Below are positions 23,812 through 36,735 of a DNA stretch of 64,000 bases, one piece after another. The position numbers were made by a program, and so were the translations under genes. Position 1 is the stretch's first letter. Each line of letters begins with the position of its first letter. Below the pieces are notes generated by a model, which did no database searches, was not told where the DNA came from, and saw only the letters and a list, made by a program, of their open reading frames with translations. The DNA is from a virus (Duplodnaviria > Heunggongvirae > Uroviricota > Caudoviricetes), in IMG/VR virus record IMGVR_UViG_2913177423_000001, positions 1 through 64,000 of that record, one strand, 5' to 3'.

Positions 23812-23888
23812 GGTGGTGTAGCTCAGTAGGATAGAGCAGCAGCCTTCTAAGCTGTCGGTCGGTGGTTCGAATCCACTCACCATCGCCA
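23812..23888 (+). tRNA. tRNA-Arg (anticodon UCU)
   Basis: cloverleaf readable by eye: acceptor GGTGGTG/CACCATC, D-arm GCTC-AGTAGGATA-GAGC, anticodon loop CTTCTAA, T-loop TTCGAAT, encoded CCA. Confidence 0.8.
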
Positions 23889-23892
23889 AATT

Positions 23893-23968
23893 GCCGATTT
23901 AGCTCAGTTGGTAGAGCAGTCGCTTTGTAAGCGAATGGTCAGCGGTTCGATCCCGTTAATCGGCACCA
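23893..23968 (+). tRNA. tRNA-Thr (anticodon UGU)
   Basis: acceptor GCCGATT/AATCGGC, D-arm GCTC-AGTTGGTA-GAGC, anticodon loop TTTGTAA, T-loop TTCGATC, encoded CCA. Confidence 0.8.
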
Positions 23969-24386: not shown

Positions 24387-24800
24387 ATGAGCGCGAGAAC
24401 AGTAATTATGCAGAAAGAGCAGTTTGTTATTTCTCTAGTGGTTAGCACCAGTTATCAGGTCGATAAAGTTTCGAAAGAAAGCGTACCTGAAATTGATGTT
24501 GTCGATGTGTTCGGCAATGAACTCAAAATACCACTTCGTGAATTTAATGAAATAGCAGCTCCGTTGGGCAAAATTGAAGGCCTGGAAGAATACCACAAGC
24601 GGATGATTATCGAGCGCGCCCAACTATGCCAGCGCATAAATAAGCTGGTTAGATTTATCGGAACAGATAACTTTCTCGCCATCGGCTTGGACAGTCAGTT
24701 GGAATTACAAAATCAGCTCGAAAGCATGATTGAGTATCGAAAAGCTCTTGATTCGCGGTTGATTAAATTAACCGAATATGACCCATCAGTAAGCGGTTAA
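24387..24800 (+). CDS. hypothetical protein (137 aa)
   Basis: ATG at 24387; AT-rich ORF embedded in the tRNA island. Confidence 0.45.
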   Translation: MSARTVIMQKEQFVISLVVSTSYQVDKVSKESVPEIDVVDVFGNELKIPLREFNEIAAPLGKIEGLEEYHKRMIIERAQLCQRINKLVRFIGTDNFLAIGLDSQLELQNQLESMIEYRKALDSRLIKLTEYDPSVSG

Positions 24801-24853: not shown

Positions 24854-24932
24854 CGCAACAGGTAAGAGCATTCTCCTGTAACGGGTTCATATCCCAATCT
24901 ACAGGTCCACCAAGAATGCTCTTTCCGTTGCG
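24854..24932 (+). repeat. structured hairpin element of the tRNA island (copy 3)
   Basis: 20-bp arms CGCAACAGGTAAGAGCATTCT and AGAATGCTCTTTCCGTTGCG; loop carries GGGTTCATATCCC. Confidence 0.45.
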
Positions 24933-24979
24933 GTGAATGCGGCTAAGCGCACGCGGAACAGTTAAAACAATCTTCCTTA

Positions 24980-25303
24980 ATGTTTAAGTCAAACATCCCG
25001 GCGTTAATTGTTAACTGGTTAACGTCACCTGGAGGCACCAGGCACCGCAATCTAATAAAGTTTCAAGCAATGGAGTTTTTGTTGTCAGACTACAGATATA
25101 GATGGTTGTGGAAGAATATCCTGTCCATATTCAAGTTTTTTCTTCCGCTATTTGTCTGCTTTGTCATGCTTCCTGAGCTGAAATACGCAATTTCAGACAC
25201 CTTAAGCACTATCGTTACTTTTGTGTTTTATCTTTACTTTGATTACTTATTGAGCACTAAAATCTATGAATTATCCGATGAAATGCAAGGTGGCTGTAAG
25301 TGA
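24980..25303 (+). CDS. small hydrophobic protein (107 aa)
   Basis: ATG at 24980; predicted TM helices; AT-rich. Confidence 0.35.
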   Translation: MFKSNIPALIVNWLTSPGGTRHRNLIKFQAMEFLLSDYRYRWLWKNILSIFKFFLPLFVCFVMLPELKYAISDTLSTIVTFVFYLYFDYLLSTKIYELSDEMQGGCK

Positions 25304-25440: not shown

Positions 25441-25516
25441 GGCCCCTTAGCTCAGTGGTTAGAGCTGGCGACTCATAATCGCACGGCCATCGGTTCAAAT
25501 CCGGTAGGGGCCACCA
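25441..25516 (+). tRNA. tRNA with CAU anticodon, probably tRNA-Ile2 (lysidine) rather than Met
   Basis: acceptor GGCCCCT/AGGGGCC, D-arm GCTC-AGTGGTTA-GAGC, anticodon loop CTCATAA, T-loop TTCAAAT, CCA; 5-prime half resembles enterobacterial ileX as recalled. Confidence 0.75.
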
Positions 25517-25702: not shown

Positions 25703-25750
25703 CACAACAGGAAAAGGCGTTTAATTAGCGTGAGCGCCGTTTCCGTTGTG
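25703..25750 (+). repeat. structured hairpin element of the tRNA island (copy 4)
   Basis: arms CACAACAGGAAAAGGCG and CGCCGTTTCCGTTGTG. Confidence 0.4.
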
Positions 25751-25972
25751 GTAATTGCGGCTATGCGCTCGTGACGAAGCCATTTTCATTCATTGCGGTT
25801 CTGATAAGTGTCGTCGCCGGGCGTGGCTGACCTGGCAGGTGGAGGCACCACCGCCACAACTCCTTTCAATTCATCATATAGCCGCTCAGGCTGTAACCCT
25901 TAATTAATACGAAGTTTCGACATCTCTATCGGTTTAACCGAGGGATGGTCGCGCGTGTAAAAAGGAGACGTT

Positions 25973-26548
25973 ATGTTAACGGCGAACGATAACGCGTATG
26001 CAGAAGCAGATCTCATATTGAGTGACTTCATCGGTCAGCGGGAACGCTGGACACAAAAGCGAGAGGAACTTTATGCCTCGTTAGTTCGCAAAGGTGTCAA
26101 CATTGAAACCGCTCAAAGCGGCGATATGACGGTAGTCAGTGTTGGATTACATGGTGTGAGCGTGTCCGCAGCCAATCATGAGCCATACGTAGCGTTATCC
26201 GAGTCGATGGCAAGGCTAATTAAGTTTCTGAAGCAAACAGAAGCCAATAATGTTTTCATCGCCAAAAAGAACATCAATTTTTCTGCCGCCGTGTTCTGGA
26301 TGATGAAGGGGCTTGACGCCCGCCGGGCATCATGGCCTAAAGGGAGCTATATGTCGATGTTCCGTGGCAGTATTGGCAGTAAAGAAAAGCTCGTCGAATT
26401 CCTGCCGGAAGAAGCATTCGATATTGTGGAAGGGTGCGATGTGATGGTTATGCCTCGCCTGGTAATGATGAATGGAGATTTACAGGCACAGACAGACTGG
26501 TTCGCCACTGGCGTGGATATTATCGCGACTGACTGGGAGGCATTCTGA
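25973..26548 (+). CDS. protein with C-terminal DUF2829-like (Tad2-like) domain
   Basis: ATG with AAGGAG upstream; C-terminal AAVFWMMKGLDARRASWPKG and DWFATGVDIIATDW fit the DUF2829 pattern. Confidence 0.45.
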   Translation: MLTANDNAYAEADLILSDFIGQRERWTQKREELYASLVRKGVNIETAQSGDMTVVSVGLHGVSVSAANHEPYVALSESMARLIKFLKQTEANNVFIAKKNINFSAAVFWMMKGLDARRASWPKGSYMSMFRGSIGSKEKLVEFLPEEAFDIVEGCDVMVMPRLVMMNGDLQAQTDWFATGVDIIATDWEAF

Positions 26549-26940
26549 TGTACGAGACTACAAAATTAAGCATTCATGAAGCCACCAATATGGAGTGGAA
26601 TATCGTCACCTGTAAGATTGTATCGTGTAATGCTGCGCGTACTGATGCAGGCCATAAGAGCACGATAACAGGCTACATGGTAATGGCTTATAGGGGATTG
26701 AGAGTTCGCTTTATCTGGAAAGCTCGGCAATTGACACCATTCAGAGAGCCGTCAATGCCATTAGAGGTAGAACAGGATTATTTAAGCCTGCCGGAAATAG
26801 ACGGTGCAACGCTGGTGGATTCTGATGGTCGTAAGGCTGATTTTGAAGTCAGCTTAAAGGTGGCGCAGGCCGTAATTAATAACTCACGTGGTAAGTGGAT
26901 CGCTAAGGTAAAACACGTCGTTCGCTTATCTCGCTGGTAA
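26548..26940 (+). CDS. hypothetical protein (130 aa)
   Basis: ATGA-coupled to the upstream gene. Confidence 0.5.
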   Translation: MYETTKLSIHEATNMEWNIVTCKIVSCNAARTDAGHKSTITGYMVMAYRGLRVRFIWKARQLTPFREPSMPLEVEQDYLSLPEIDGATLVDSDGRKADFEVSLKVAQAVINNSRGKWIAKVKHVVRLSRW

Positions 26941-26970
26941 TGTTAGATAAATGGAATTAATTTTCTAATA
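26941..26970. promoter_or_regulatory. overlapping inverted pair of C1-like operator motifs
   Basis: TGTTAGATAAATGGAAT on plus strand overlapping GAATTAATTTTCTAATA on minus strand; upstream of gene 27049 and the terminase genes. Confidence 0.5.
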
Positions 26971-27048
26971 TAGCTAACTTTTTGCCAGTCTATACAGAAA
27001 TAACATTCTCATTATCATCCCCTCGGTCATTTCCTGCCTGGGGGATTA

Positions 27049-31562: not shown

Positions 31563-31579
31563 TTCCTAATTTTCTAACT
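31563..31579 (-). promoter_or_regulatory. C1-like operator motif copy
   Basis: TAATTTTCTAAC core within the intergenic region between the repressor candidate and cre-like gene. Confidence 0.4.
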
Positions 31580-31758
31580 TTAGATAATTGGCATTATTTA
31601 AAGTTAGTATATAATAATGATCAAACGATCAGTATTGACAGACTCAAAAAGTCATGGTTCGAATCAAGGGCTTAAATTTTAAATTCTCACGGATAACTAG
31701 CCTGTCATTTTTTGTTTTTTCGCGTAGCGACACCAATTTATAGAGGTGAAATGATTAC

Positions 31759-33206: not shown

Positions 33207-33679
33207 AAAATTATTACCCATCTCTGAATTGTTACCCGTCTTCGTATCCGGAATTGTCCGGGAAGCTGTTAGCTCTATTGGCTAAATCACCAACTGAATG
33301 GTTTAGGCCAGTCGTTATCAATCCGCACTTCCTGGATTACGGATCTGTTCGCACTCGTAACGAACTCAAAAACCTGCTGGCGCATGGATTCATTCGACAT
33401 CGCGCCGGGAAAGGCTATCAGTTAGCGATTGCGCCAGAAGAGGCCGTGCGGCTATTCGCATATCGTGACAGCCAGACAAAAGCGCGGGTAATAGCTCAAA
33501 TACTTCATAACGGCAGCACCTATGCCCGCCAGTTTGGCGGCGACACGTCGCAGTTCTTGCGGGCTGTGCGATCGCTGGAAGAACAAGGAGTTATTGAAAG
33601 TTCCTGTCTTCCTGTTCCTACCGTTCCACATATCAAACGTCGGGTTTACACCTTCACGCAGAGAGCAAAAAAACAATGA
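33203..33679 (+). CDS. hypothetical protein (158 aa)
   Basis: GTG start with AAGGGGG upstream; coupled to flanking genes. Confidence 0.45.
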   Translation: MKNYYPSLNCYPSSYPELSGKLLALLAKSPTEWFRPVVINPHFLDYGSVRTRNELKNLLAHGFIRHRAGKGYQLAIAPEEAVRLFAYRDSQTKARVIAQILHNGSTYARQFGGDTSQFLRAVRSLEEQGVIESSCLPVPTVPHIKRRVYTFTQRAKKQ

Positions 33680-34170
33680 TTTACGTAAAAGTGAAACGCC
33701 TACATCCGGCAGCGAAACTTCCAGCTTATGCCACTGCCGGATCGGCGGCGATGGATTTTGAGGCTGTTGAAATAACACCGTGCGTCGATAGCAATGGTGC
33801 AATTTCCTCAAGCTGGTGGGTGCATACCGGGCTGGCTATGGAGATCCCGCCCGGCTGGTGTCTGAAACTCTATCCGCGTTCCGGATTGGGCTGCAAAAAA
33901 CATACTCGCCTGGCTAACTGTGTAGGAATTATCGACTCCGATTATCGCGGTGAAATCATGGCAAAACTGATTACTGATCCCGGCGGTGAAGGCGTTTGCC
34001 TCAAGCCAGGAATGGCGGTCATGCAAGGCATTTTTGAGCGTGTTGAACAAGTCTCTCTTGTCGAAGTTGAGGAACTCAACGAAACGGAACGTGGTGCTGG
34101 TGGCTTTGGTAGCACATCAGAAGGCCGCTTTGAAATTAAGCGTTCACCGCTTCAGTACGAAAAGTTATAA
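33676..34170 (+). CDS. dut: dUTP diphosphatase (dUTPase)
   Basis: trimeric dUTPase motifs RSGLG, GIIDSDYRGE and GGFGSTSEG. Confidence 0.85.
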   Translation: MIYVKVKRLHPAAKLPAYATAGSAAMDFEAVEITPCVDSNGAISSSWWVHTGLAMEIPPGWCLKLYPRSGLGCKKHTRLANCVGIIDSDYRGEIMAKLITDPGGEGVCLKPGMAVMQGIFERVEQVSLVEVEELNETERGAGGFGSTSEGRFEIKRSPLQYEKL

Positions 34171-34184
34171 GCAGAGGGACAACT

Positions 34185-34871
34185 ATGAAGGAAAAGCTTT
34201 TGAAGACGCTCCCTGAGTACAAATACCACGGAACCATTCGCGCATCGAAAATCAAAAAGATCAAGCCTATTGGCGGATTAATTCCTCTCTGGGGTGATAT
34301 TGAGGTCACCGAACCAAAAGGGGTAACGATTCGTGTTGATTTAATGTTTTTACAAAAATACCGACCACAAATTGGCGGGTATTTGGTCGTTCATGAGGAC
34401 GGATATTTGTCCTATTTATCAGAAAAAACATTTAAAGAGGGCTTTAGTCGAATTGATGACATCTCAGAAAATGAAACAACAGTCATCATTGCCGATGACA
34501 AAGGCATGATGATTAATCTTGCCGGGATCGTATCTATTTATGCTGATGACATCACTAACCAACAAGAAGAAATCGACCTTGAGGCAGCCGACTTTTCTGA
34601 CGCGCTGATGTGGCTGAAGGATGGCAAGAAAGTTGCTCGACGCGGGTGGAACGGCGAAAACCAATTCTGCTGGCTGGTTCCTGACAAACAGGGCGCTTCA
34701 AGACTAACCCCTATAAAACATGCCGCAAGCGGAGAGCTTGAAATCAATTTCGGCTCGCCCCTTGCTCCTTATGGAGAGCATTTCACTTTGAAAAATGCAC
34801 AAGGTGTCTTTCTTCCGTGGCTACCTTCTGTCGGCGACCTGCTGGCATGTGACTGGTTTGTAGTGGAGTGA
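34185..34871 (+). CDS. protein with C-terminal DUF2829 (Tad2-like) domain
   Basis: C-terminal ALMWLKDGKKVARRGWNGENQF and WLPSVGDLLACDWFVV are a strong DUF2829 signature; unique 130-aa N-terminal domain. Confidence 0.6.
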   Translation: MKEKLLKTLPEYKYHGTIRASKIKKIKPIGGLIPLWGDIEVTEPKGVTIRVDLMFLQKYRPQIGGYLVVHEDGYLSYLSEKTFKEGFSRIDDISENETTVIIADDKGMMINLAGIVSIYADDITNQQEEIDLEAADFSDALMWLKDGKKVARRGWNGENQFCWLVPDKQGASRLTPIKHAASGELEINFGSPLAPYGEHFTLKNAQGVFLPWLPSVGDLLACDWFVVE

Positions 34872-34877
34872 TTTGAC

Positions 34878-35651
34878 ATGGAAAGCACCAAAACAACTCA
34901 ATACCGCTTGCGTAATGGCCTGCTGGTGGCTGTTAACGCCGACATGTCACTGCCGTTTGACACGATAGAACGCACTATCATGACGTATCTCGGCTTTAAT
35001 GAAGAGCTGAATGAAGAGCATGGCGTAGCTATATGGAGTGATGCAGACAGCGGCGTTCGTCGTTACATCACTGCCAGAGGCAAAGACTACTCTCTGGAAG
35101 AACTGTTTACCCTTGCGCAGTCTTTCGAATGTGTAGCATTGGACCTGTTTAATGATCCTGCTATAGCGCAACGACTTATCCGCGAGCTTGGGCTGTCGGT
35201 TACCCCAATTATCTTTAAAAATGGCAGCCTGACTGGCACATGGCGCGTAGAGCGCATCTCAAACTACCTTCCATATAACCGCCAGTTAAACGGGGTAATT
35301 TCCGGCGTCAATCAGCCTGTAGCGTGTGAAAACGCAAACCTGGTTGTCGCTGTTTTGGCAACTGCATGTCGCGTTATTGGTTTGACTAAACAGGCATTTA
35401 TCCATTTTCCCAATGGTGCAGAAGGTGGCGTAGAAATTATCGCGTGTGATTTCGAATTTACCTGGATGCTTCGTGAATATCTGGACCGAACAGTGTTCCG
35501 CGCCGAAGAACTGGATCTGTATATCACGTCAACGATTCCTGATGATGTGCGAGCTGAAGCAATCGCTACAGCCAGAGCGAAATGCCGTGCGTCGATTGCA
35601 GAACAAGCCAAAGAAGAAGTTACAGTTAAGGAAGTGGCAGATGGTAACTAA
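34878..35651 (+). CDS. hypothetical protein (257 aa)
   Basis: ATG at 34878; stop overlaps start of next gene. Confidence 0.5.
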   Translation: MESTKTTQYRLRNGLLVAVNADMSLPFDTIERTIMTYLGFNEELNEEHGVAIWSDADSGVRRYITARGKDYSLEELFTLAQSFECVALDLFNDPAIAQRLIRELGLSVTPIIFKNGSLTGTWRVERISNYLPYNRQLNGVISGVNQPVACENANLVVAVLATACRVIGLTKQAFIHFPNGAEGGVEIIACDFEFTWMLREYLDRTVFRAEELDLYITSTIPDDVRAEAIATARAKCRASIAEQAKEEVTVKEVADGN

Positions 35652-36735
35652 GAGCAATATTTATAAAGATCCGCGCTGGCTGTCGCTGGTGGAGAAATAT
35701 AAAGACAATTGGGTACTGGCAGCAAAAGAATTGTTTGATATTGATTTAAGCCACCAGCAACAACAAATTGTTGAAGCTATACAGCCCAATAATGCAAAAG
35801 CTACTGTCACCACTCCGCATGGGATCGGACGACCGCAAGTGCTTGCTGTTATTAGTACCCTTTATACGATTATGTATCCTGATTCCCGGACAGTAATTGT
35901 TTATCCAAAATCAAATGCTTGCAAAAGAGGAATTGTTGCATATGTGTGGCAATGTTGGGAGGCATTGCTGAAAAAACAACCTTTTATCATTGAGTATTTT
36001 AAGGTCGGTGATAGCGGTCTGATGTTCAATGAATTTTGGGGAATGTGCTTTTGTAACTACCGCCTTAACTATGAAGATAGCATTGCAGGTCACTACGCCG
36101 ACCATCTTTTATTCATTATTGTGGATTCCGCACATATCAGCGATCGGGCATACAGTATTGTGTGGGCAAGCATGACTAGTGGTGATTCACGCATATTGCT
36201 CACTTCAATTCCGTCACCAGAGGAAATAGGCTTTTTTTATGATTCACATCATGGACGTGCTTTAGCTGAAGATAATCCGAGTGGTGTCTATAAAGCCATT
36301 AAGCTGAGTGCTGAGGATTCACCATTTATTACCCAAGAATATCTTGATCATTTTGCCGAAAGGTATGGCGGGCGAAATAGTGATGACTATCGTCGTATGA
36401 TTCTTGGTGAGTTCCCTGGTATTAGGGAGGCTGTTCTTGAATCAGATATGCCGAAGACAATGCGCTTTTCGATGCCTGATGGTAGTGAATGGACAATGCC
36501 ATTACGAGTGATAGCCCGGCATCATGCGCAGCACCACGCCAAAAAACATAGCGTCACGACATTAGAATGGTTGAAATCGCACACTATTCCACTCTTCACT
36601 GCAGATCACAATGCTATCGTTGAGTGGGCCAAAACAATTCCGTGGGAGCATGTCGCTGAATACGCTCACATGCTAAAACCGCCGAAAGACAGACACGAAA
36701 TTAGCTGGCTGACAGCCGAAAAAATCATTGAATGA
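35641..36735 (+). CDS. terminase large-subunit ATPase-domain paralog with degenerate Walker motifs
   Basis: ATG at 35641 overlapping upstream stop; aligns to PacB-like N-terminus (DPRW, QQQ-I, GFFYDSHH, DNP-G, SPF-T) but Walker A is PHGIGRPQ and Walker B IIVDSAH; no nuclease domain. Confidence 0.6.
   Translation: MVTKSNIYKDPRWLSLVEKYKDNWVLAAKELFDIDLSHQQQQIVEAIQPNNAKATVTTPHGIGRPQVLAVISTLYTIMYPDSRTVIVYPKSNACKRGIVAYVWQCWEALLKKQPFIIEYFKVGDSGLMFNEFWGMCFCNYRLNYEDSIAGHYADHLLFIIVDSAHISDRAYSIVWASMTSGDSRILLTSIPSPEEIGFFYDSHHGRALAEDNPSGVYKAIKLSAEDSPFITQEYLDHFAERYGGRNSDDYRRMILGEFPGIREAVLESDMPKTMRFSMPDGSEWTMPLRVIARHHAQHHAKKHSVTTLEWLKSHTIPLFTADHNAIVEWAKTIPWEHVAEYAHMLKPPKDRHEISWLTAEKIIE

What the first reader, a model, noticed from the sequence alone, without database searches (positions are those of the whole stretch)
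25973..26548. Second, more divergent DUF2829-like protein in the same element
The C-terminal region (AAVFWMMKGLDARRASWPKG ... DWFATGVDIIATDWEAF) follows the same pattern as the protein at 34185-34871 but is more diverged. Two DUF2829 paralogs in one element would suggest specialisation against different ligands or hosts.
Basis: inference. Interest (0 to 1): 0.4.

Follow-up and report, generated by a model that had tools for sequence, protein, structure and literature searches.

The report
Divergent second Tad2-like sponge gene
A gene labelled "hypothetical" in a D6-like E. coli phage-plasmid does encode a second, very divergent copy of the Tad2 fold that phages use to soak up bacterial alarm molecules. 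It is fused to an uncharacterised domain and its binding pocket is altered, so it probably targets a different signal from the element's ordinary Tad2 gene, though nothing here tests that.

Summary

The element is a D6-like P1-family phage-plasmid. The gene sits just upstream of lpa-pacAB-c1, and it keeps that position in relatives down to 22-25% identity. It evolves under purifying selection (dN/dS 0.08 against D6).

It is not a recent paralogue of the 228-aa protein. The two share only the Tad2 domain (17% identity), have unrelated N-terminal domains, and fall in separate clades. ORF228 groups with the characterised Tad2 proteins and keeps the canonical pocket. The ORF191 clade keeps both clamp tryptophans and the Asp but loses the phosphate-binding Asn-Gly, and it lacks the cyclic-dinucleotide pocket residues.

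Its N-terminal domain has a dsRBD-like or "ABA-sandwich"-like fold and no sequence relatives.

Most likely it is a signal sponge with non-canonical specificity, but its ligand, oligomeric state and expression timing are untested. Tad2 in D6-like elements is already published, so this is a new variant of a known kind. A Sequestin-family (PF21825) ORF lies 1.2 kb upstream.

The parts
25973..26548 (+). ORF191: a 191-aa two-domain protein, orthologue of phage D6 gp006/'orf6' (annotated hypothetical). The end coordinate includes the stop codon.
   Evidence: ORF list and sequence. 91.6% aa identity to D6 and 100% to a 'hypothetical protein' of E. coli plasmid NZ_AP027678.1. dN/dS 0.08 against D6. 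Full-length match to PHROG 7362, function unknown.
25963..25967 (+). Shine-Dalgarno AGGAG, 5 nt before the ATG
   Evidence: Read directly from the sequence.
25973..26263 (+). N-terminal domain (residues 1-97; folded core about 10-91, order alpha-alpha-beta-beta-beta-alpha). The fold is dsRBD-like or phage 'ABA-sandwich'-like, with no sequence relatives outside this protein family.
26276..26542 (+). Tad2-like domain (residues 102-190). W121 and W176 correspond to the Trp clamp and D182 to the conserved Asp. P122 replaces the phosphate-binding Asn, and the loop is one residue shorter because the Gly is missing.
   Evidence: Pfam, PDB profile hits, fold matches, pocket table. Residue roles are taken from bioRxiv 10.1101/2023.05.01.538930 and 10.1101/2023.11.15.567273.
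26548..26940 (+). ORF130: a downstream gene whose ATG overlaps the ORF191 stop (TGATG), preceded by GGAGG. It is probably translationally coupled. Function unknown (PHROG 7004).
   Evidence: Sequence. No Pfam, NCBIfam or PDB match. The same 130-aa partner follows the 33%-identical homologue in L003 but is absent in L002.
26958..26969 (+). TAATTTTCTAAT, one copy of a dispersed 12-mer that is probably the D6-type C1 operator. It is followed by a sigma-70-like site at 26991-27018 in front of lpa. This marks lpa as a separately controlled unit downstream of ORF191-ORF130.
   Evidence: 14 matches in the window against 1.3 expected. Promoter-like site. P1 has the same layout, Olpa plus Plpa before lpa.
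34185..34871 (+). ORF228: the element's canonical Tad2-domain protein (residues 136-227), with a different N-terminal domain that resembles the Dec OB-fold. It lies directly after dUTPase.
   Evidence: Pfam 1.1e-20. Profile hits ModTad2 at 4e-24 and Dec 6e3c at 7e-6. Canonical pocket residues. Annotated 'DUF2829 domain-containing protein' in public records.
24387..24800 (+). ORF137: a PF21825 ('Sequestin' sponge family) protein 1.2 kb upstream. It is context for reading this region as carrying several signal sponges.
   Evidence: Pfam PF21825 at 2.4e-12 and 47 bits against a cutoff of 24.8. The family was shown to sequester 3'cADPR in bioRxiv 10.1101/2025.07.12.664507.

Best explanation
ORF191 is a functional, vertically inherited gene of D6-like P1-family phage-plasmids. 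It encodes an N-terminal alpha/beta domain of unknown role fused to a deep-branching Tad2-fold domain. The most likely mechanism follows from the characterised Tad2 proteins. The Tad2 domain would oligomerise (Tad2 proteins are homotetramers) and form inter-protomer pockets in which the two conserved tryptophans (W121, W176) sandwich a nucleotide-derived immune second messenger and D182 contacts its ribose hydroxyls. That would sequester the signal and stop a Thoeris-, CBASS- or Pycsar-type effector from firing when the element infects a cell or is induced. The phosphate-binding Asn-Gly is replaced by Pro with a one-residue deletion, and the cyclic-dinucleotide pocket residues are absent, so its ligand preference probably differs from that of canonical Tad2 and of the co-resident ORF228.

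Shown here: the gene is real and under purifying selection, domain membership, fold, pocket residue pattern, synteny and co-occurrence. Inferred only: oligomerisation, ligand binding, anti-defence phenotype, ligand identity and the role of the N-terminal domain.
For: Family and fold.

The clamp Trp residues are invariant (19/19) and the Asp is conserved in 15/19 across a family diverged to about 20% identity. That argues a pocket is still under selection.

Purifying selection acts on both domains (dN/dS 0.08).

The gene holds its position upstream of lpa-pacAB-c1 in elements 42%, 33% and 22-25% identical, and it occurs in 125 plasmids.

It co-occurs with a canonical Tad2 across that depth, which argues the two are not redundant.

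A PF21825/Sequestin ORF lies 1.2 kb upstream. In P1 the slot upstream of lpa holds accessory cargo (phd-doc-pdcAB).

The protein is acidic (pI about 5), like SPO1 Tad2 and ModTad2.

Tad2 family members are experimentally known to bind 3'cADPR, His-ADPR, N7-cADPR, cGG/cGAMP and cUMP/cCMP in different pockets. Two-domain fusions of Tad2 with other sponge domains are common and functional: Pm86 Acb4-Tad2 is 185 aa with the same domain order and size.
Against: No experiment or multimer model was available here.

The Asn that contacts the diphosphate in both solved gcADPR complexes is Pro here and the next Gly is missing. The validated CDN-pocket residues of HgmTad2 (R31, S47, F70, N85) correspond to F130, F143/L144, V159 and T174. 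So neither known pocket is intact, and the domain may not bind any known signal.

The Asn, Ser and Thr positions vary within the clade, which could mean relaxed constraint rather than new specificity.

Multi-domain Tad2 proteins were excluded from or absent in the published functional screens, and the sequence was not found in their held supplements.

No promoter, C1-operator-like motif or P1-type late-promoter box was found in the 450 bp upstream, so early expression is unproven.

Thoeris is, to my knowledge, uncommon in E. coli.
Confidence: 0.55

Rival explanations
1. It is an ordinary anti-Thoeris type I sponge that binds 3'cADPR as SPO1 Tad2 does. In that case it is functionally redundant with ORF228 and the Sequestin-like ORF137, for example as a dosage or back-up copy.
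For: It passes the PF11195 cutoff. The Trp clamp and Asp, which provide most of the van der Waals and hydroxyl contacts in the SPO1 Tad2-gcADPR structure, are conserved. Most Tad2 homologues tested in the literature inhibit type I Thoeris.
Against: The N26/N22 equivalent is Pro and the Gly is deleted. The domain is 17-28% identical to characterised Tad2 proteins and lies outside their clade. Long-term retention of two or three sponges for one ligand would be unexpected.
Confidence: 0.15
2. It is an RNA-binding protein rather than a small-molecule sponge. The Tad2-fold tetramer core would bind a structured RNA, as reported for head-less AcrIIA7 with tracrRNA, assisted by the dsRBD-like N-terminal domain.
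Against: Both domains are acidic (pI 5.3 and 4.8, net charge -3 each), whereas HgmTad2/AcrIIA7 has pI 8.9. The N-domain has no conserved basic residues; the only invariant or near-invariant positions are A74, G41, V57 and G61. To my knowledge E. coli has no type II CRISPR or tracrRNA. The best-matching dsRBDs (TRBP dsRBD3, Staufen 'RBD'5) are, to my knowledge, protein-interaction types that do not bind RNA. The anti-Cas9 activity of HgmTad2 was itself not reproduced by another group.
Confidence: 0.07
3. The Tad2 fold has been co-opted for a non-defence job tied to its neighbours, such as a regulator or accessory factor for late transcription or packaging (lpa, pacAB) or a virion-associated protein. 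The conserved Trp residues would then be structural.
For: The position next to lpa-pacAB is strictly conserved across very divergent elements. The Sorek-lab survey excluded Tad2 domains fused to a Dec-like domain (PDB 6E3C). Pocket positions other than Trp and Asp are variable.
Against: lpa has its own operator-like motif and promoter-like site, so it is a separate unit. P1 does without this gene and carries accessory cargo in that slot. The partner ORF130 is dispensable in L002. No similarity to any regulator or structural family was found.
Confidence: 0.12
4. It is a toxin of a type I toxin-antitoxin system, as the NCBI name 'MW1434 family type I TA system toxin' on a 56%-identical homologue would suggest.
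For: NCBI's name for P0008.
Against: The only source found for the name is a bioinformatic list of S. aureus candidates, with no test of MW1434 (PMC6266405). The protein is soluble, has two domains and 191 aa, and has no hydrophobic-peptide character. NCBIfam gave no hit for ORF191.
Confidence: 0.02

Closest known systems
Tad2 (Thoeris anti-defense 2; SPO1 gp34.65; PDB 8SME/8SMF; Pfam PF11195)
   Same: Same Pfam family above the cutoff and the same fold. The alpha1 helix motif (F-x-x-A-x-x-x-x-x-x-G-x-x-x-R-x-x-W), the two clamp Trp residues, the Asp and the C-terminal D-W are all present.
   Different: Only 17% identity. The Asn of W-N-G is Pro and the Gly is missing. The protein carries a 97-aa N-terminal domain that the 89-aa SPO1 Tad2 lacks. 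Binding to 3'cADPR is untested.
HgmTad2/AcrIIA7 and SptTad2 (PDB 8KBI-8KBM, 8WJD, 9KZR)
   Different: The cGG/cGAMP pocket residues (R31, S47, F70, N85) are not conserved. ORF191 is acidic rather than basic. Its N-terminal domain is alpha/beta, not the two-helix 'head'.
ModTad2 (PDB 8V3E/9EIB), which binds His-ADPR and cUMP
   Different: ModTad2 keeps W-N-G and W-x-P-S-x-S-D. ORF228, not ORF191, is the close relative (4e-24 against 1.6e-9).
Acb4-Tad2 fusion of Pasteurella phage Pm86 (ORF47, 185 aa), reported to block both Thoeris I and CBASS I
   Same: Same overall design and size: an N-terminal domain of about 80-90 aa with an alpha-beta3-alpha type fold, a linker, then a C-terminal Tad2 domain. 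Acb4 is described as dsRBM-like, with RNase III dsRBD and HPF (4HEI) as structural neighbours, and the ORF191 N-domain has the same neighbours.
ORF228 of the same window (the DUF2829 protein of P1/D6 phage-plasmids, reported as 'Tad2 AcrIIA7' in 93% of D6-like elements)
   Same: Same element, same Tad2 domain family, and also a two-domain protein.
   Different: 17% identity within the domain, an unrelated N-terminal domain (Dec OB-like), a canonical pocket, a different locus (after dUTPase), and a 'DUF2829' label in public records whereas ORF191 is 'hypothetical'.

Membership tests
Tad2 / PF11195 (DUF2829) | Sequence match to the family model above the curated threshold | tested here: met
   37.7 bits against GA 25, E 3e-9, covering model positions 2-72 of 73. 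All 19 family members match. The profile hits all solved Tad2 structures at 1e-9 to 1e-14.
Tad2 / PF11195 (DUF2829) | Tad2 fold (N-terminal helix plus antiparallel sheet with inserted loops or helices) | tested here: met
Tad2 / PF11195 (DUF2829) | Two tryptophans that sandwich the ligand (SPO1 W25/W73; Hgm W21/W87) | tested here: met
   W121 and W176 are invariant in 19/19 family members.
Tad2 / PF11195 (DUF2829) | Asn (and the following Gly) of the W-N-G loop, which contacts the diphosphate from both protomers (SPO1 N26; Hgm N22/G23) | tested here: not met
   The sequence is W121-P122-K123-G124 with a one-residue deletion. Across the clade the position is P in 10/19 and otherwise D, N, G, R, M or H. 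All five characterised Tad2 sequences in hand have W-N-G.
Tad2 / PF11195 (DUF2829) | Asp contacting ribose hydroxyls (SPO1 D79; Hgm D93), with Ser/Thr neighbours (S76/T78; S90/T92) | tested here: inconclusive
   D182 is present (15/19 in the clade). The Ser is Thr179 and the Thr is Val181, and both positions vary within the clade.
Tad2 / PF11195 (DUF2829) | Homotetramer with inter-protomer pockets | not testable with these tools
   Only single-chain prediction was available. It needs AF-Multimer/AF3 or SEC-MALS.
Tad2 / PF11195 (DUF2829) | Binds a TIR- or CD-NTase-derived signal and relieves the cognate defence | not testable with these tools
   Experimental. The sequence was not found in the held supplements of the two Sorek-lab screens.
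HgmTad2-type cyclic-dinucleotide pocket | R31, S47, F70 and N85, validated by mutagenesis | tested here: not met
   Mapping through the HMMER alignments gives F130, F143/L144, V159 and T174.
Acb4 / PF13876 (as identity of the N-terminal domain) | Sequence or profile similarity to Acb4 | tested here: not met
   No PF13876 hit at E<=10 for ORF191 or E<=1 for any member. hhalign against the Pm86 Acb4 domain gives probability 0.3%. 9e4w is not recovered by the N-domain profile at E<=10, although it is in the library.
Acb4 / PF13876 (as identity of the N-terminal domain) | Same fold class (helices, three antiparallel strands, C-terminal helix; dsRBM-like) | tested here: inconclusive
   Secondary-structure order is similar, and the structural neighbours are the ones published for Acb4 (RNase III dsRBD, HPF 4HEI). 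9E4W itself is not among the 50-60 listed matches.
dsRNA-binding domain (dsRBD) (N-terminal domain) | alpha-beta-beta-beta-alpha fold | tested here: met
dsRNA-binding domain (dsRBD) (N-terminal domain) | Conserved basic RNA-contact residues (such as the KKxAK-type motif at the start of the last helix) | tested here: not met
   No conserved basic position in alignment A3. The domain has pI 5.3 and net charge -3.
Sequestin / PF21825 (neighbouring ORF137 only) | Match to PF21825 above the curated threshold | tested here: met
   47 bits against 24.8, E 2.4e-12, residues 67-125. Function was not tested.

The most novel reading that the evidence does not exclude
The ORF191 clade would be a previously unrecognised, deep-branching class of two-module sponge. 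Its remodelled Tad2 pocket (W-P in place of W-N-G) would capture an immune signal that no characterised Tad2 binds. Its family-specific N-terminal dsRBD/ABA-sandwich-like domain would be a second, new ligand-binding (sponge) module, as Acb4 is in Acb4-Tad2 fusions. Together with ORF228 and a Sequestin-like ORF, that would give D6-like phage-plasmids three or four distinct signal traps.
Probability: 0.15. Interest if true: 0.7.

Novelty: new variant of a known kind. Interest (0 to 1): 0.35.

Why it matters
D6-like phage-plasmids circulate in clinical E. coli, Shigella and Salmonella. Their anti-defence content helps decide which hosts they can enter and persist in. This gene is "hypothetical" in D6 and in every plasmid record listed among the 125 matches, so the element's sponge repertoire may be under-annotated, at least in GenBank-type records.

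The Tad2 family has repeatedly yielded new ligand specificities (His-ADPR, N7-cADPR, cUMP). A clade lying outside all tested members, with an altered pocket and a private extra domain, is therefore a reasonable bait for fishing out a signal molecule, or for defining a new sponge module. If it turns out to bind 3'cADPR like the rest, the finding is routine.

Tried and rejected
- **P1 C1 operator.** The consensus ATTGCTCTAATAAATTT with up to 3 mismatches gives 0 hits, so D6-type immunity uses another site. De novo comparison of intergenic regions gave TARTTTTCTAAY (14 hits against 1.3 expected). A copy lies before lpa but none in the 450 bp before ORF191.
- **P1 late-promoter '-22 box'.** The box (AAGTTACTT / ATGTGACTT, read from the P1 annotation) was searched with its -10 spacing. 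Nothing lies upstream of ORF191.
- **Generic promoter and terminator scan, and inverted repeats.** Only a weak terminator-like hairpin at 25716-25738.
- **Upstream alignment.** Six orthologous upstream regions share no motif beyond window and D6. Expression timing therefore stays unresolved.
- **Rfam on 23.5-27.5 kb.** Only the three tRNAs pass threshold.
- **Pairwise BLASTP of the two window proteins.** Barely significant (E 0.018). Profiles were needed.
- **NCBIfam.** No useful hit.
- **Identity of the N-domain.** Pfam scans of all members, an hmmsearch against PDB sequences, hhalign against Acb4 and a profile search of 5.8 billion proteins gave no relatives outside the family.
- **afdb50 fold library.** Not available. 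BFVD was used instead and gave only weak E-values.
- **Supplements of the two Sorek-lab sponge papers.** Searched for this sequence and for D6, with no occurrence, though the held text may be truncated.
- **Contexts of the short stand-alone 'W-P' Tad2 homologues P0020 and P0024.** Uninformative.
- **ORF137 as a TciA/TerB homologue.** Rejected: it shows no similarity to D6 TciA, which is TerB.

Full report
**The observation**

The window has an ORF at exactly 25973..26548 (+), 191 aa. It starts at an ATG that lies 5 nt after an AGGAG. Pfam PF11195, now named "Tad2-like, Thoeris anti-defense 2-like domain", matches residues 102-190 at E 3e-9 and 37.7 bits against a curated cutoff of 25. The protein at 34185-34871 (228 aa) matches the same model at 1.1e-20.

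Direct BLASTP between the two is barely significant, so I built family alignments:
- The ORF191 family has 17 representatives with E<=1e-3 among 1.84 billion proteins.
- The ORF228 family is large.
- The ORF191 profile hits all solved Tad2 structures: SptTad2 1.6e-14, HgmTad2/AcrIIA7 1.9e-14, SPO1 Tad2 6e-10, ModTad2 1.6e-9.
- hhalign between the two families gives 98.4% probability and E 4.4e-15, but only over the C-terminal 89 columns.
- An HMM scan of all 812 stop-to-stop fragments of the window finds exactly two Tad2-domain ORFs.

**The element and the gene's place in it**

The region is about 88% identical to Escherichia phage D6, a P1-family phage-plasmid. ORF191 is the orthologue of D6 gp006 ("orf6", hypothetical protein).

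The local gene order is:
- tRNA-Arg and tRNA-Thr
- ORF137
- a TciB-like membrane ORF
- tRNA-Met
- a 450-bp spacer
- ORF191
- ORF130, whose ATG overlaps the ORF191 stop
- lpa, pacA and pacB
- c1 on the opposite strand
- a cre-like recombinase
- two small ORFs
- dUTPase
- ORF228

By tblastn, 125 plasmid records carry ORF191. They are almost all non-mobilizable, and those listed are 77-96 kb. They come from Escherichia, Salmonella and Shigella, with a few distant copies in Pantoea and Enterobacter. In every record listed the gene is called "hypothetical protein". ORF228's orthologues are annotated "DUF2829 domain-containing protein".

The gene is real and constrained. dN/dS against D6 is 0.08, and it is similar in both domains.

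Homologues that are 42%, 33% and 22-25% identical still sit upstream of lpa-pacAB-c1 in P1-like contigs (L002, L003, L004/L005, L006). The gene is therefore old, syntenic cargo of this lineage. P1 itself lacks it and has phd-doc-pdcA-pdcB in that slot.

**The two Tad2-domain proteins compared**

They are not recent paralogues. Their Tad2 domains are 17% identical and their N-terminal halves do not align. In a neighbour-joining tree, ORF228 and its relatives fall on the same side as SPO1 Tad2, ModTad2, HgmTad2, SptTad2 and the Pm86 fusion (32-40% identity). The ORF191 family forms a separate deep clade (17-28% identity).

The pairing is stable:
- D6 has both genes.
- 101 plasmids cover at least 80% of the whole 8.9-kb block that contains both.
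- The relative at 33% identity (L003) has both, with its second copy fused to dUTPase. In this window dUTPase is the gene immediately upstream of ORF228.

ORF228's N-terminal region resembles the phage L Dec OB-fold (6e3c, E 7e-6). A published survey already reports "Tad2 AcrIIA7 (anti-Thoeris)" in 93% of D6-like and 56% of P1-like phage-plasmids (bioRxiv 10.1101/2025.09.12.675607). Tad2 in these elements is therefore known. That paper does not say which gene was scored, but the PGAP "DUF2829" label sits on the ORF228 type.

**Ligand pockets**

The SPO1 Tad2 and HgmTad2 structures define the gcADPR pocket:
- Two Trp residues from each of two protomers (W25/W73; W21/W87).
- An Asn, with the next Gly, that contacts the diphosphate (N26; N22/G23).
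- An Asp on the ribose hydroxyls (D79; D93).
- Ser and Thr neighbours.

W21A/N22A and S90A/T92A/D93A mutants lose binding.

The pocket positions in the two families:

| Pocket position (SPO1 / Hgm numbering) | ORF228 family | ORF191 family |
|---|---|---|
| First clamp Trp (W25 / W21) | W in 24/24 | W121, 19/19 |
| Asn on the diphosphate (N26 / N22) | N in 20/24 (K in 4) | P122; P in 10/19, otherwise variable |
| Gly after the Asn (G27 / G23) | G in 22/24 | missing; loop one residue shorter |
| Second clamp Trp (W73 / W87) | W in 24/24 | W176, 19/19 |
| Ser neighbour (S76 / S90) | S in 24/24 | T179; variable |
| Thr neighbour (T78 / T92) | mostly G | V181; variable |
| Asp on the ribose hydroxyls (D79 / D93) | D in 24/24 | D182, 15/19 |

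The mutationally validated cyclic-dinucleotide pocket of HgmTad2 (R31, S47, F70, N85) maps to F130, F143/L144, V159 and T174 (alignments). The clamp survives, but both known pockets are altered. That fits a changed specificity, and it equally fits relaxed constraint on everything except the fold. Sequence alone cannot decide between these.

**The N-terminal domain**

Residues about 10-91 fold confidently as alpha-alpha-beta-beta-beta-alpha, both in the full-length model and alone.
- In BFVD the best matches (TM 0.64-0.66, E only 0.02) are a Bacillus phage Eldridge protein and a "Phage ABA sandwich domain" protein.
- No sequence method finds relatives outside this family.
- It has no conserved basic residues and is acidic, so it is not a canonical RNA binder.

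One lead is suggestive but unproven. Acb4, a cGAMP sponge, is described as dsRBM-like, with RNase III dsRBD and HPF 4HEI as its structural neighbours (PMC11722364). Acb4-Tad2 fusions are common and dual-active (bioRxiv 10.1101/2025.07.12.664507). The Pm86 fusion (185 aa: PF13876 at residues 5-80, PF11195 at 99-184) has the same layout and size as ORF191. Against this, hhalign of the N-domain profile to the Pm86 Acb4 domain gives 0.3% probability, and 9E4W is not among the listed structural matches although it is in the PDB copy. I therefore do not call the N-domain Acb4.

**Most likely mechanism**

By analogy with characterised Tad2 proteins, ORF191 most likely oligomerises through its Tad2 domain and sequesters a nucleotide-derived immune signal between W121 and W176. 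Its specificity would differ from canonical Tad2 and from ORF228 (confidence about 0.55).

Supporting context:
- The family's known breadth: 3'cADPR, His-ADPR, N7-cADPR, cGG/cGAMP and cUMP/cCMP, bound in at least two different pockets.
- The long co-retention of two Tad2 lineages in one element.
- A PF21825 "Sequestin" ORF 1.2 kb upstream (47 bits against a cutoff of 24.8).
- The accessory-cargo nature of the slot upstream of lpa in P1.

Rivals:
- A redundant 3'cADPR sponge (0.15).
- A co-opted non-defence role tied to lpa/pac (0.12).
- RNA binding in the manner reported for AcrIIA7 with tracrRNA (PMC13133391) (0.07). The acidic charge and the absence of type II CRISPR in E. coli weaken it.
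- A toxin (0.02). The NCBI "MW1434 type I TA toxin" name rests on an untested bioinformatic list.

**What remains unknown**

Oligomeric state, ligand and phenotype are all untested, and so is the role of the N-domain and of ORF130, which is probably translationally coupled (no hits).

Expression timing is also open. The P1 C1 operator is absent. A dispersed 12-mer, TARTTTTCTAAY (14 hits against 1.3 expected), looks like the D6-type operator. It precedes lpa at 26958 with a promoter-like site at 26991-27018, mirroring P1's Olpa/Plpa, but it is not found upstream of ORF191. No P1-type late box or conserved upstream motif was found there either.

**Verdict**

This is a correct observation of a real, conserved and publicly unannotated Tad2-domain gene. 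The "two paralogs, different ligands" reading is reasonable in spirit, but the two are distant lineages and the specialisation is inferred only.

The gene is a member of PF11195 by sequence and fold. It fails one defining pocket feature, the Asn-Gly, and carries a private N-terminal domain, so I class it as a new variant of a known kind. Interest is moderate (0.35). It would be higher if the pocket or the N-domain proves to bind a new signal.

Noticed in passing
window 24387-24800 (+): A 137-aa ORF carries a PF21825 domain (residues 67-125, 47 bits against cutoff 24.8). This family was recently named Sequestin and shown to sequester 3'cADPR and block type I Thoeris. It occupies the slot where D6 has TciA/TerB, to which it is unrelated, and it is shared with some P1-like phages. 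The element may therefore carry three signal sponges.
   Followed up: partly
window 8620, 9826, 14780, 20277, 21320, 22570, 22726, 26958, 31389, 31567, 32791, 45506, 46159, 57515: The dispersed 12-mer TARTTTTCTAAY occurs 14 times with at most 1 mismatch, against 1.3 expected. Copies lie in the c1-cre intergenic region and just upstream of a promoter-like site before lpa, where P1 has its C1 operator Olpa. It is probably the D6-type C1 operator. The P1 operator consensus itself has no match.
   Followed up: partly
window 34185-34871 and 33676-34170: The N-terminal region of ORF228 (profile positions 55-125) matches the phage L decoration protein Dec (PDB 6E3C, E 7e-6). Tad2 proteins with this extra domain were deliberately excluded from the published Tad2 functional survey. 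The gene directly follows dUTPase, and in relatives the two are fused into one protein (L003 304 aa; P0084 241 aa).
   Followed up: partly
window 35446-36735 (+): An ORF is 37% identical over 258 aa to the N-terminal ATPase part of PacB (E 2e-60). The PacB motif GHGTGKS, which looks like a Walker A, reads PHGIGRP here, so the Lys-Ser is lost. It has an unrelated C-terminus and no Pfam hit. It looks like a degenerate terminase paralogue of unknown role, and the listed start overlaps ORF 34878-35651.
   Followed up: partly
window 26548-26940 (+): The 130-aa ORF130 starts at an ATG that overlaps the ORF191 stop codon and has its own GGAGG. It matches PHROG 7004 and has no Pfam, NCBIfam or PDB similarity. 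It accompanies the ORF191 homologue in D6 and L003 but not in L002.
   Followed up: partly
window 24929-25049 (+): A sub-threshold Rfam match to the sRNA STnc100 (RF02076, 42.4 bits against gathering score 47, E 4.9e-7) overlaps the start of the TciB-like ORF 24980-25303.
   Followed up: no
window 31573-31620 (+): Upstream of the cre-like gene, an operator-like 12-mer runs into a long imperfect inverted repeat (CTAACTTTAGATAAT ... ATTATTTAAAGTTAG), which is followed by TATATAAT. This looks like a regulated promoter (read from the sequence printed).
   Followed up: no
window 23812-23968 and 25441-25516 (+): Three tRNA genes (Arg-TCT, Thr-TGT, Met-CAT) flank the ORF137/TciB-like block. In the equivalent region D6 is annotated with Asn, Thr and an odd Ser tRNA on the opposite strand, so the tRNA set differs between close relatives.
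   Followed up: no
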